Numbered from the stretch's first letter, positions 29,481 to 29,794 are shown. The stretch: 64,000 nt of DNA from Escherichia coli (GCF_003334405.1 NZ_QOWM01000002.1); one strand, 5' to 3'. Numbers and translations: made by a program. Notes: generated from the letters alone by a model not told the origin.

Positions 29481-29711
29481 TAAATTTAACTCAAATTTTG
29501 CCTGGTAATTATCCGGTAATTGCTTGAAATATGGTCTCAGCCCCTTTTTTGTATTAACCACATAACGAATGATGTTATCGCCATAAAATATGGTTATCCC
29601 CGTCATTTTTTTTGACAAAAATCAGGGTTTATGCTGATTTTTATACTTTAACTTGTTGATATTTAAAGGTATTTAATTGTAATAACGATACTCTGGAAAG
29701 TATTGAAAGTT

Positions 29712-29733
29712 AATTTGTGAGTGGTCGCACATA
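29712..29733. promoter_or_regulatory. CRP-binding-site-like palindrome in the tdc promoter
   Basis: aatt-TGTGA-gtggtc-GCACA-tatc (TGTGA-N6-GCACA) about 70 bp upstream of the tdcA ATG; the tdc operon is known to be catabolite-controlled. Confidence 0.55.
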
Positions 29734-29794
29734 TCCTGTTCATTTCATTTTGATACACTTCATGCCGTCAATGAGGTAATTAACGTAGGTCGTT

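What the first reader, a model, noticed from the sequence alone, without database searches (positions are those of the whole stretch)
29481..29794. tdc control region: CRP-like palindrome and a small divergent ORF of uncertain extent (tdcR)
A TGTGA-N6-GCACA palindrome lies about 70 bp upstream of tdcA in an AT-rich region. The divergent tdcR reading frame can be read as 72 aa from the ATG at 29480 or longer (up to 118 aa in the ORF track) with weak start signals, so its true coding extent, and whether it is translated at all, is unclear.
Basis: partly seen in the sequence, partly recalled or inferred. Interest (0 to 1): 0.2.

Follow-up and report, generated by a model that had tools for sequence, protein, structure and literature searches.

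The report
tdc promoter region and doubtful tdcR
This is the already-known control region of the E. coli threonine/serine-degradation (tdc) operon: its CRP site is real and conserved across enterobacteria, but the small divergent 'tdcR' reading frame shows no evolutionary mark of a protein-coding gene and lies inside conserved, length-invariant regulatory DNA.

Summary
The window is E. coli K-12, and 29481-29794 is the tdcR/tdcA divergent control region.

**CRP site.** TGTGAGTGGTCGCACA lies at 29716-29731, centred 71.5 bp before the tdcA ATG. One such match in 64 kb is not significant by itself. However, 59 of 61 tdcA loci from other enterobacterial species keep TGTGA-N6-[GT]CACA. In 58 of those 59, a -10-like TAnnnT follows exactly 22 nt later. 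This is class-II CRP promoter geometry.

**tdcR reading frame.** It reads 72 aa from ATG 29480 (the RefSeq call), 114 aa from ATG 29606, or 118 aa from TTG 29618. The longer forms are not supported. The extension is frame-shifted or lacks the ATG in sister Escherichia, and it overlaps conserved DNA blocks.

**The 72-codon frame.**
- It exists only in Escherichia.
- Substitutions are flat across codon positions (47/53/46; tdcA 9/6/123).
- dN/dS is 0.62-0.84 (tdcA 0.01-0.03).
- It has no Shine-Dalgarno sequence, no domain and no confident fold.
- The start is lost in E. albertii, and natural nonsense and IS1 alleles exist.
- Frame retention is only weakly better than chance (P 0.01-0.10).

**Context.** The frame sits in a 583-bp module of conserved blocks whose length is invariant across genera.

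**Verdict.** A known locus. The coding status of tdcR is doubtful.

The parts
29716..29731 (.). CRP (CAP) site of the tdcA promoter, TGTGAGTGGTCGCACA
   Evidence: Exact position. TGTGA-N6-[GT]CACA is present in 59 of 61 tdcA loci of other species, starting 76-81 bp before the ATG (raw sequences).
29754..29759 (+). -10-like hexamer TACACT of the tdcA promoter. The inferred transcription start is about 29765-29767.
   Evidence: A TAnnnT hexamer lies exactly 22 nt after the CRP site in 58 of 59 loci (TACACT in 33, TAGAAT in 24). The start point is inferred from this geometry and was not measured here.
29649..29661 (-). IHF-consensus match (minus strand TATCAACAAGTTA = WATCAANNNNTTR)
   Evidence: It is partly conserved. 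It lies about 106-118 bp upstream of the inferred start. That fits the published IHF site as I recall it (a recollection; the papers are not held).
29612..29625 (.). Conserved FNR/CRP-family-like dyad TTGACAAAAATCAG. It contains the TTG 'start' of the 118-aa frame.
   Evidence: TTGAN-N4-NTCAN (mostly TTGAY-N4-[AG]TCAG) is present in 55 of 58 loci, at -183 +/-3 bp from the ATG in 53. The stricter pattern occurs 3 times in the window against 0.53 expected. Which protein binds it was not tested.
29574..29601 (.). Most conserved upstream block, GTTATCGCCATAAAATATGGTTATCCCC. It covers codons 2-11 of the 114-aa frame.
   Evidence: Found in 58 of 59 loci at -217 to -224 bp from the ATG (-220 to -223 in 54), with at most 3 mismatches. 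The binding factor is unknown.
29516..29532 (.). Conserved block GTAATTGCTTGAAATAT
   Evidence: 38 of 59 loci, at -277 to -281 bp.
29459..29492 (.). Conserved block TTTGAnAAnTT...ATTAAATTTAA, which includes the ATG (CAT on + at 29478-29480) of the 72-aa frame
   Evidence: TAAATTTAA is conserved across genera, while the CAT itself is not conserved outside Escherichia.
29262..29480 (-). tdcR, the 72-aa ORF as annotated in RefSeq. It is Escherichia-only and shows no protein-level constraint.
   Evidence: Annotation. NCBIfam NF008507: 172 bits. Substitutions by codon position: 29/26/29, and 47/53/46 on a tree. dN/dS 0.62-0.84. Only Escherichia/Shigella homologues.
29481..29618 (-). Upstream in-frame extension (114 aa from ATG 29606, 118 aa from TTG 29618). 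Judged not coding.
   Evidence: A 1-nt indel near 29551 breaks the frame in L005, L006, L007 and L015. ATG 29606 is absent in L005, L006, L007 and L008. The stretch overlaps the conserved DNA blocks. No SD.
29212..29227 (.). Second, distal CRP-like palindrome TGTGATCCTCAACACA (with flanks, TTTTGTG-N8-CACAAAA)
   Evidence: Present in 31 of 58 loci. It lies 582-583 bp from the tdcA ATG (sd 0.5) in 13 loci of four genera.
29212..29794 (.). 583-bp conserved, length-invariant upstream module of tdcA that contains all of the above
   Evidence: Blocks sit at nearly fixed offsets (mostly within 1-3 bp) across about 60 loci. CRP2-to-ATG distance is 582-583 bp, while the adjacent rnpB-to-CRP2 spacer is 182-1450 bp. 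No 3-nt periodicity anywhere. No consensus RNA structure on the tdcR-sense strand over 29262-29640.
29795..30733 (+). tdcA (LysR-type activator), first gene of the operon. Used here as the positive control for coding signal.
   Evidence: Variable sites by codon position 9/6/123. dN/dS 0.009-0.025.

Best explanation
Interval 29481-29794 is the known divergent control region of the E. coli K-12 tdcABCDEFG operon.

Shown:
- The palindrome at 29716-29731 is a deeply conserved CRP-type site. It sits a fixed 22 nt upstream of a weak -10 (TACACT, 29754-29759), and there is no -35 hexamer.

Inferred:
- This is class-II-like CRP activation. The site centre lies about 42-44 bp upstream of a start near 29765-29767. 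An IHF bend at about -110 brings upstream-bound factors to the polymerase.

Shown:
- The whole 583 bp from a distal CRP-like site (29212-29227) to the tdcA ATG is a string of conserved blocks. Their spacing is invariant across Escherichia, Citrobacter, Salmonella and relatives.
- The tdcR ORF is an Escherichia-restricted open frame superimposed on this DNA.
- Its 114/118-aa forms are artefacts of reading through conserved cis-elements.
- Its 72-aa form evolves like non-coding DNA.

Inferred, and my committed reading:
- tdcR is not a conserved, sequence-constrained DNA-binding protein.
- The conserved function of this DNA is cis-regulatory.
- At least part of what genetics attributed to 'tdcR' reflects removing or adding these cis-elements.
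- If any product is made, it starts at ATG 29480. It would be a young, barely constrained peptide.
For: - Identity and annotation.
- CRP site: present in 59 of 61 loci, and a TAnnnT lies exactly 22 nt downstream in 58 of 59.
- Conserved blocks at nearly fixed offsets of about -79, -187, -221, -279, -331, -387 and -585 bp from the ATG.
- CRP2-to-ATG distance is 582-583 bp (sd 0.5), against 182-1450 bp for the neighbouring spacer.
- Outside Escherichia the tdcR frame is broken, yet the blocks persist.
- Within Escherichia, variable sites by codon position are 29/26/29, against 9/6/123 for tdcA.
- On a tree, 146 parsimony events fall 47/53/46 by codon position.
- dN/dS is 0.62-0.84 in frame and 0.34-1.09 in the off-frame controls. 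For tdcA it is 0.009-0.025.
- E. coli polymorphisms are 10 non-synonymous to 3 synonymous.
- ATG is changed to ATA in E. albertii, and there is a nonsense codon in L007.
- Natural disrupted alleles: an internal stop in strain USVAST219, IS1 inside tdcR in strain 97.3, and frameshifted variants.
- No SD sequence. No Pfam hit. No PDB relative.
- An exhaustive HMMER search finds only TdcR fragments, chimeras and other non-homologous matches.
- AlphaFold2: pLDDT 53, pTM 0.24, one long helix and no helix-turn-helix.
- No 3-nt periodicity anywhere in 29155-29790.
- Literature: the spacer is an H-NS-bound 'promoter island' and an RNA-polymerase SELEX peak.
Against: - Published genetics describe tdcR as a trans-acting positive regulator with a minicell product (Schweizer & Datta 1989; Hagewood et al. 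1994). I recall this from memory because the papers are not held. A plasmid-borne effect in trans is more easily explained by a diffusible product than by cis DNA.
- The 72-codon frame is open in 5 of 6 deep Escherichia lineages, more than neutral simulations predict. P = 0.010 with random sites and 0.022 with variable columns only. A third test compares 2 observed nonsense events with 5.4 expected and gives P = 0.096.
- DNA-level constraints could mask a protein-level signal.
- The AlphaFold alignment was shallow (14 close sequences), so a poor model is weak evidence.
- The transcription start, and binding of CRP, IHF or any other factor, were not measured here.
Confidence: 0.6

Rival explanations
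1. TdcR is a genuine 72-aa trans-acting activator protein, as annotated. It would be a young, Escherichia-specific, fast-evolving gene born inside the tdc regulatory region. Its amino-acid sequence would be only loosely constrained.
For: - ORF retention is better than neutral expectation (P 0.01-0.10).
- ATG 29480 and the C-terminal RTSFCECNRFP are shared by most Escherichia.
- The region is present in 5393 of 5426 E. coli genomes.
- tdcR mRNA changes are reported in transcriptome studies.
- Classical genetics, recalled from memory, report a trans effect and a minicell polypeptide.
Against: - Codon-position profile is flat and dN/dS is 0.6-0.8, no different from off-frame controls.
- The conserved stretches are blocks with all three codon positions invariant. 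The same blocks persist in genera where the frame is broken.
- The start codon is lost in E. albertii, and natural nonsense, IS1 and frameshift alleles exist.
- No SD, no domain, and no confident fold or helix-turn-helix.
- Frame preservation needs no coding explanation, because the whole 583-bp module is free of indels in all genera.
Confidence: 0.3
2. The functional product is the divergent transcript or the act of transcription itself. This could work through promoter competition, supercoiling coupling with the tdcA promoter, or a regulatory RNA. The ORF would be incidental.
For: - A divergent promoter-like pair has been predicted in the spacer. TTTAAA-16-TATAAA lies on the minus strand at 29667-29640 and overlaps the IHF-like site. 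TTGATA-16-TGTAAT lies on the plus strand at 29656-29683.
- The spacer is described as a promoter island.
- No terminator follows tdcR.
Against: - No consensus RNA structure or covariation on the tdcR-sense strand in 12 species (-1.07 kcal/mol).
- No Rfam match.
- The conserved blocks look like protein-binding sites at fixed spacing.
- The simple promoter scan shows no enrichment (4 found against 3.4 expected).
Confidence: 0.07
3. The true product is the long form, 114 aa from ATG 29606 or 118 aa from TTG 29618, as in older annotations and many database entries.
For: - The frame is open for 119 codons in K-12, which happens in only 1.2% of shuffles.
- The 114-aa frame is intact in the sampled E. 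coli and in L004.
- Many database entries are 114 aa.
Against: - A 1-nt indel and upstream stops break the extension in E. whittamii, E1V33, SCPM-O-B-8794 and E69. ATG 29606 is missing in four lineages.
- The extension coincides with the most conserved cis-blocks and the FNR-like dyad. This also explains the spurious tblastn 'homology' in Citrobacter and Salmonella.
- Anti-SD pairing is +0.6 kcal/mol.
- The NCBIfam model and RefSeq both use 72 aa.
Confidence: 0.03

Closest known systems
tdcABCDEFG promoter (tdcAp) of E. coli K-12: CRP-, IHF-, TdcA- and TdcR-dependent, subject to catabolite and anaerobic control (Datta laboratory 1988-1994; Sawers 2001)
   Same: It is this very locus, with sequence 100% identical to K-12. 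The CRP site, the -10 and the IHF-consensus positions found here fit what I recall of the published CAP site (about -43.5) and IHF site (about -104). Open papers list CRP, IHF and TdcR as its regulators and H-NS as a repressor in Salmonella.
   Different: The identity of the locus does not differ. Three points go beyond what I know to be described, and I could not check them against the primary papers (not held). They are the cross-genus invariance of a 583-bp module, the distal CRP-like site, and the FNR-like dyad.
TdcR (UniProt P11866; NCBIfam NF008507 / PRK11424, 'transcriptional activator TdcR'), a one-member transcription-factor family in E. coli TF catalogues
   Same: The 72-aa translation matches the model end to end at 172 bits, against a cut-off of 100. 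RefSeq annotates it at 29262-29480.
   Different: The family consists only of Escherichia/Shigella sequences. It shows no coding-type constraint, no recognisable DNA-binding domain and no confident fold. Matching the model therefore says little about function.
Class II CRP-dependent sigma-70 promoters (for example galP1 and melAB-type), where the CRP site replaces the -35 element
   Same: A 16-bp TGTGA-N6-xCACA site directly abuts the promoter, a -10 lies a fixed 22 nt downstream, and there is no good -35.
   Different: The distance from site centre to the first base of the -10 is 30.5 bp. This places the centre at about -42.5 to -43.5 rather than the canonical -41.5. The promoter also depends on far-upstream elements, as shown by conserved blocks out to -585 bp from the ATG.
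Lineage-restricted (orphan or de novo) ORFs arising in AT-rich, H-NS-bound intergenic DNA or 'promoter islands'
   Same: It is genus-restricted with no homologues and near-neutral dN/dS. It lies in a reported promoter island with H-NS.
   Different: The host DNA here is not fast-evolving or horizontally acquired filler. It is an old, conserved, rigidly spaced regulatory region. The ORF also carries a decades-old functional annotation.

Membership tests
CRP (CAP) binding site of a class II CRP-dependent promoter | 22-bp site with the TGTGA-N6-TCACA core | tested here: met
   TGTGAGTGGTCGCACA at 29716-29731. The left half matches 5/5 and the right half 4/5 (GCACA).
CRP (CAP) binding site of a class II CRP-dependent promoter | Conserved in orthologous promoters | tested here: met
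   59 of 61 tdcA loci from other species (GCACA in 54, TCACA in 5).
CRP (CAP) binding site of a class II CRP-dependent promoter | Site centre near -41.5 relative to the transcription start, overlapping the -35 region | tested here: inconclusive
   The -10-like TAnnnT lies exactly 22 nt after the site in 58 of 59 loci. This implies a centre at about -42 to -44. The start point itself was not measured, and the primary papers are not held.
CRP (CAP) binding site of a class II CRP-dependent promoter | cAMP-CRP binds and activates | not testable with these tools
   Secondary sources state that the operon is CRP-regulated.
TdcR family transcriptional activator (NCBIfam NF008507) | Scores above the curated cut-off of the family model | tested here: met
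   172 bits against a cut-off of 100, covering residues 47-118 of the 118-aa frame, which is the 72-aa form.
TdcR family transcriptional activator (NCBIfam NF008507) | Evolves as a protein-coding gene (third-position excess, dN/dS well below 1) | tested here: not met
   Codon positions 29/26/29 and 47/53/46. dN/dS 0.62-0.84, the same as off-frame controls. Within E. coli, 10 non-synonymous to 3 synonymous. The tdcA control gives 9/6/123 and dN/dS of about 0.01-0.03.
TdcR family transcriptional activator (NCBIfam NF008507) | Contains a DNA-binding (helix-turn-helix) domain | tested here: not met
   No Pfam domain. No PDB relative with E<0.09. The AlphaFold2 model has pLDDT 53 and a single helix at residues 13-61. 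Caveat: the alignment was shallow.
TdcR family transcriptional activator (NCBIfam NF008507) | Is translated from a recognisable initiation region | tested here: inconclusive
   The anti-SD duplex is -2.2 kcal/mol at ATG 29480 and +0.6 at ATG 29606 and TTG 29618. AT-rich leaders can initiate without an SD. No ribosome-profiling or proteome evidence could be retrieved.
TdcR family transcriptional activator (NCBIfam NF008507) | Activates tdc transcription in trans | not testable with these tools
   This rests on the 1989 and 1994 genetics, which I could not read.
Structured non-coding RNA | Conserved secondary structure with covariation, or an Rfam match | tested here: not met
   RNAalifold consensus of -1.07 kcal/mol with 5 pairs over 385 columns in 12 species. 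No Rfam match above threshold in 28900-29900.

The most novel reading that the evidence does not exclude
tdcR is not a protein-coding gene at all. It has been listed for decades as a transcription factor with a family of its own. On this reading, the 'gene' is part of an ancient 583-bp, indel-free cis-regulatory scaffold of the tdc promoter. The scaffold is shared by Escherichia, Citrobacter, Salmonella and relatives. It is bounded by two CRP-type sites 504 bp apart, which is about 48 helical turns. The classical 'TdcR' phenotypes would then come from deleting or multiplying this DNA.
Probability: 0.4. Interest if true: 0.5.

Novelty: already known. Interest (0 to 1): 0.28.

Why it matters
The locus itself is textbook E. 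coli regulation, so the CRP site adds nothing new.

What could matter is curation. TdcR is carried in RegulonDB/EcoCyc-style networks and TF catalogues as a real activator, and PGAP propagates it to thousands of genomes. If it is not a functional protein, one node of the E. coli regulatory network is wrong. The genetics of tdc control would also need re-reading in terms of cis-elements.

Separately, a 583-bp non-coding module that tolerates substitutions but virtually no indels across genera points to a phase-sensitive nucleoprotein assembly. That assembly could involve CRP, IHF, H-NS, TdcA and perhaps FNR-type factors. It is directly testable by inserting half or full helical turns between the blocks.

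It may also explain a published observation: IS5 insertions in this spacer are repeatedly selected in the mouse gut.

Tried and rejected
**Primary literature.** The papers on tdcR and the tdc promoter (PMC196961, PMC205700, PMC211612) are not held. The published positions of the CAP, IHF, TdcA and TdcR sites, and of the start points, are therefore cited from memory only.

**Translation and proteome evidence.**
- Li et al. 2014 is not held.
- Conway et al. 2014 has no supplements held.
- The Mori et al. 2021 supplements contain no tdc entries at all, so they are uninformative.
- Text searches for tdcR together with 'ribosome' or 'orphan' gave nothing relevant. An unrestricted 'tdcR' search returned mostly unrelated acronyms.

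**Remote homology.** Pfam, PDB and an exhaustive HMMER search of 1.84 billion representatives found nothing real. P0055 looks like a base-converted sequencing artefact of the 114-aa frame. P0048 is a chimera. P0053 is a repeat protein matching by composition.

**Apparent homology in other genera.** The tblastn 'homology' of the 118-aa frame to Citrobacter and Salmonella was followed up and rejected as protein homology. The frames there are broken. The similarity is carried by conserved DNA blocks.

**Structured RNA.** Rejected.

**Hidden ORF.** A small ORF in another frame or strand, which might explain the indel-free spacing, was rejected because there is no 3-nt periodicity in any 90-nt window at two evolutionary depths.

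**Fold search.** Not run, because the model confidence (pLDDT 53) would make any match meaningless.

**Promoter scan.** The simple scan gave no enrichment (4 against 3.4 expected) and no terminator.

Full report
**What the window is**

The stretch 29100-29900 is 100% identical to E. coli K-12 strains (JM109, EPI300). It is present in 5393 of 5426 complete E. coli genomes. RefSeq annotates the following, from left to right:
- rnpB
- yhaC at 27258-28445 (-)
- yhaB (-)
- tdcR at 29262-29480 (-), 72 aa
- tdcA at 29795-30733 (+)
- tdcB and tdcC

The finding's interval, 29481-29794, is therefore exactly the tdcR/tdcA spacer. GC content is 27-37% from about 27150 to 29850, against about 50% on either side.

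**The palindrome**

TGTGAGTGGTCGCACA lies at 29716-29731. Its centre is 71.5 bp before the tdcA ATG. It is the only match to TGTGAN6KCACA in 64 kb. With 0.30 expected and 19 of 100 shuffles giving at least one match, the match alone proves nothing.

I fetched the tdcA locus from one genome for each of 64 species-level records (Escherichia, Citrobacter, Salmonella, Enterobacter, Raoultella, Kluyvera, Lelliottia and others). The results (raw sequences):
- 59 of the 61 non-K-12 loci counted carry TGTGA-N6-[GT]CACA, starting 76-81 bp before the ATG.
- In 58 of those 59, a TAnnnT hexamer follows exactly 22 nt after the site. It is TACACT in 33 loci, as in K-12 at 29754-29759, and TAGAAT in 24.

No -35 hexamer is evident. 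This is the geometry of a CRP site that takes the place of the -35 element. From it I infer a start near 29765-29767 and a site centre at about -42 to -44. From memory, the published CAP site is at about -43.5 and the IHF site at about -104. I could not read those papers. An IHF-consensus match (minus strand TATCAACAAGTTA) lies at 29649-29661, in the expected place. Open papers confirm that the operon is described as controlled by CRP, IHF and TdcR and as repressed by H-NS in Salmonella.

**The reading frame**

The minus-strand frame is open for 119 codons. It gives:
- 118 aa from TTG 29618
- 114 aa from ATG 29606, the length of many older database entries
- 72 aa from ATG 29480, used by RefSeq and by the NCBIfam model NF008507

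None of the three starts has a Shine-Dalgarno sequence. The anti-SD duplex energies are +0.6, +0.6 and -2.2 kcal/mol, against -3.3 for tdcA and -6.5 for tdcB. In dinucleotide-preserving shuffles of 29200-29800, an open frame of at least 72 codons appears 36% of the time and one of at least 119 codons 1.2% of the time.

**The long forms are not supported**

- In E. whittamii, Escherichia sp. E1V33, strain SCPM-O-B-8794 and strain E69, a 1-nt indel near 29551 and upstream stops break the extension.
- ATG 29606 is absent in four of the six deep Escherichia lineages.
- The extension coincides with the most conserved DNA of the whole region. GTTATCGCCATAAAATATGGTTATCCCC at 29574-29601 is found in 58 of 59 loci about 221 bp from the ATG.
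- An FNR/CRP-family-like dyad, TTGACAAAAATCAG at 29612-29625, is conserved in 55 of 58 loci and contains the TTG 'start'.

These blocks also explain why tblastn with the 118-aa frame 'hits' Citrobacter and Salmonella. The frames there are broken by stops and shifts, so the similarity is at the DNA level.

**The 72-aa form does not evolve like a protein**

Homologues exist only in Escherichia/Shigella, by both a word-indexed search and an exhaustive HMMER search.

| Measure | tdcR (72 codons) | tdcA control |
|---|---|---|
| Variable sites by codon position, deep Escherichia lineages (7 for tdcR, 6 for tdcA) | 29/26/29 | 9/6/123 |
| Parsimony events by codon position, 15-sequence tree (146 events) | 47/53/46 | not done |
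| Nei-Gojobori dN/dS against K-12 | 0.62-0.84 | 0.009-0.025 |
| Polymorphic sites by codon position, nine E. coli | 5/5/3 | 1/0/10 |

Further points:
- The two wrong frames of the same DNA give dN/dS of 0.34-1.09, the same range as the annotated frame.
- The tdcR DNA diverges at 0.5-1.0 of the tdcA synonymous rate, evenly over all three codon positions.
- The E. coli polymorphisms are 10 non-synonymous to 3 synonymous.
- E. albertii has ATA in place of the ATG, and L007 has a nonsense codon.
- Strain USVAST219 has an internal stop flagged by PGAP.
- Strain 97.3 has IS1 inside the ORF.
- Frameshifted and duplicated variants occur among database proteins.
- There is no Pfam domain and no PDB relative.
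- AlphaFold2 with the available alignment gives pLDDT 53, pTM 0.24 and one long helix, not a helix-turn-helix.

**The one signal in favour of a gene**

The frame stays open in 5 of 6 deep lineages. Simulations that re-deal the inferred substitutions along the tree gave these results:
- P = 0.010 with substitutions placed at random sites.
- P = 0.022 with substitutions restricted to variable columns.
- A site-preserving test expects 5.4 nonsense events against 2 observed (P = 0.096).

This is suggestive but not decisive.

**Context that changes the picture**

In all non-coli Escherichia and most other genera there is no yhaB or yhaC. There, rnpB lies directly upstream. The DNA between rnpB and tdcA has two parts.

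The part proximal to tdcA is a chain of conserved blocks at nearly fixed offsets from the ATG: about -79, -187, -221, -279, -331, -387 and -585 bp. It ends in a second CRP-like palindrome, TGTGATCCTCAACACA, at 29212-29227. The distance from that site to the ATG is 582-583 bp (sd 0.5) in 13 loci of four genera.

The adjacent rnpB-to-site spacer, by contrast, ranges from 182 to 1450 bp.

The module therefore tolerates substitutions but almost no indels. That alone keeps any frame in register without coding. There is no 3-nt periodicity in any 90-nt window of 29155-29790 at either evolutionary depth. There is no consensus RNA structure on the tdcR-sense strand over 29262-29640 and no Rfam match. 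I therefore read the blocks as protein-binding sites whose relative phase matters. The two CRP-type sites are 504 bp apart centre to centre, about 48 turns at 10.5 bp per turn. I treat that as a lead, not a result.

Independent literature places an H-NS-associated 'promoter island' of 477 bp and an RNA-polymerase SELEX peak on this spacer. By my coordinate mapping, the island covers roughly window 29258-29735, with an uncertainty of a couple of bp. Another study reports recurrent IS5 insertions at one spacer position during mouse-gut evolution. By the same mapping that position is near 29664, next to the IHF-like site.

**Mechanism, with what is shown and what is inferred**

Shown:
- A conserved CRP-type site at a fixed distance from a weak -10.
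- Conserved upstream blocks at fixed spacing.
- An Escherichia-only ORF with neutral-like substitution.

Inferred:
- cAMP-CRP at about -43 recruits RNA polymerase.
- IHF bends the DNA at about -110.
- Factors bound to the distal blocks act through that bend against H-NS silencing. Candidates from the literature are TdcA, FNR or ArcA-dependent factors, and a second CRP dimer.

For tdcR, I consider it most likely (about 0.6) that it is not a constrained DNA-binding protein and that the conserved function of its DNA is cis-regulatory. A real but young and loosely constrained 72-aa activator remains possible (about 0.3). An RNA or transcription-coupled role (about 0.07) and the long form (about 0.03) are unlikely.

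**Comparison with the known, and novelty**

The locus, the CRP site and the tdcR ORF are all already known. The ambiguity over the start codon is an annotation history: 114 aa in older entries, 72 aa now.

In the searchable library I found no paper questioning the coding status of tdcR. I score the finding as already known, with modest interest for the re-reading of tdcR and for the length-invariant module.

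Noticed in passing
window 29212-29227: A second CRP-like palindrome, TGTGATCCTCAACACA (with flanks, TTTTGTG-N8-CACAAAA), lies downstream of the tdcR stop. It is 504 bp centre to centre from the promoter-proximal CRP site. It is present in 31 of 58 loci and sits 582-583 bp from the tdcA ATG in four genera. No -10-like hexamer lies at a class-II distance on either side.
   Followed up: partly
window 29612-29625: An FNR/CRP-family-like dyad, TTGACAAAAATCAG (TTGAN-N4-NTCAN, mostly TTGAY-N4-[AG]TCAG), is conserved in 55 of 58 tdcA loci, at -183 +/-3 bp from the ATG in 53. The stricter pattern occurs 3 times in the window against 0.53 expected. It contains the TTG start of the 118-aa frame. 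The binding protein is unknown.
   Followed up: partly
window 29212-29794: The whole 583-bp upstream module of tdcA is almost free of indels across genera (sd 0.5 bp). The neighbouring rnpB-proximal spacer varies from 182 to 1450 bp. This suggests a helical-phase constraint in a higher-order nucleoprotein complex.
   Followed up: partly
window 29649-29664: An IHF-consensus match is at 29649-29661. A published hot spot of IS5 insertion in mouse-gut-evolved E. coli (reference position 3265168, PMC7518454) maps, by my conversion, to about 29664, right next to it. A recurrent A-to-C change (3265132) maps to about 29700.
   Followed up: partly
window 27258-29036 (yhaC, yhaB): yhaB and yhaC (GC 27-37%) are present only in E. 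coli sensu stricto among the fetched loci. E. albertii, E. whittamii and other Escherichia lineages have rnpB directly upstream of the tdc module, so yhaBC looks like a recent AT-rich insertion. The ORF track gives yhaB 189 aa from TTG 29036, whereas RefSeq annotates a shorter form ending at 29006.
   Followed up: partly
window 29432-29459 (+), 29656-29683 (+) and 29640-29667 (-): Several promoter-like hexamer pairs lie in and around tdcR. One good pair, TTATCA-16-TATAAT, lies inside the tdcR ORF and points towards tdcA. The pair proposed in the RpoD SELEX paper (TTGATA-16-TGTAAT and TTTAAA-16-TATAAA) overlaps the IHF-like site. The simple scan shows no enrichment over shuffles (4 against 3.4).
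   Followed up: no
window 29348, 29420, 29437 (tdcR codons 45, 21, 15): K-12 carries non-synonymous alleles (C45, C21, V15) where the other sampled E. coli have G45, R21 and mostly A15. The laboratory-strain TdcR sequence is therefore atypical of the species.
   Followed up: no
L002 (E. coli 97.3), L074 (USVAST219), H20 (YPE10): Natural disruptions of tdcR: an IS1A insertion splitting the ORF, an internal stop codon, and a genome in which only 33% of the 801-bp query is matched.
   Followed up: partly
L003, L037, L062: Probable mislabelled or contaminated public records. A 'Bacteroides sp.' MAG contig is identical to E. coli K-12 here. 'Chryseobacterium sp. 18061' and 'uncultured Clostridium sp.' contigs carry enterobacterial tdcA loci.
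   Followed up: no
protein P0055: A 117-aa database protein looks like the 114-aa TdcR frame with many residues changed to G, R or S, as if A had been read as G. It is probably a base-conversion or sequencing artefact rather than a homologue.
   Followed up: no
window 29079-29153 (-): A weak OmrA-B (RF00079) match at 21.2 bits, against a gathering score of 40, with E = 0.24. Most likely chance.
   Followed up: no
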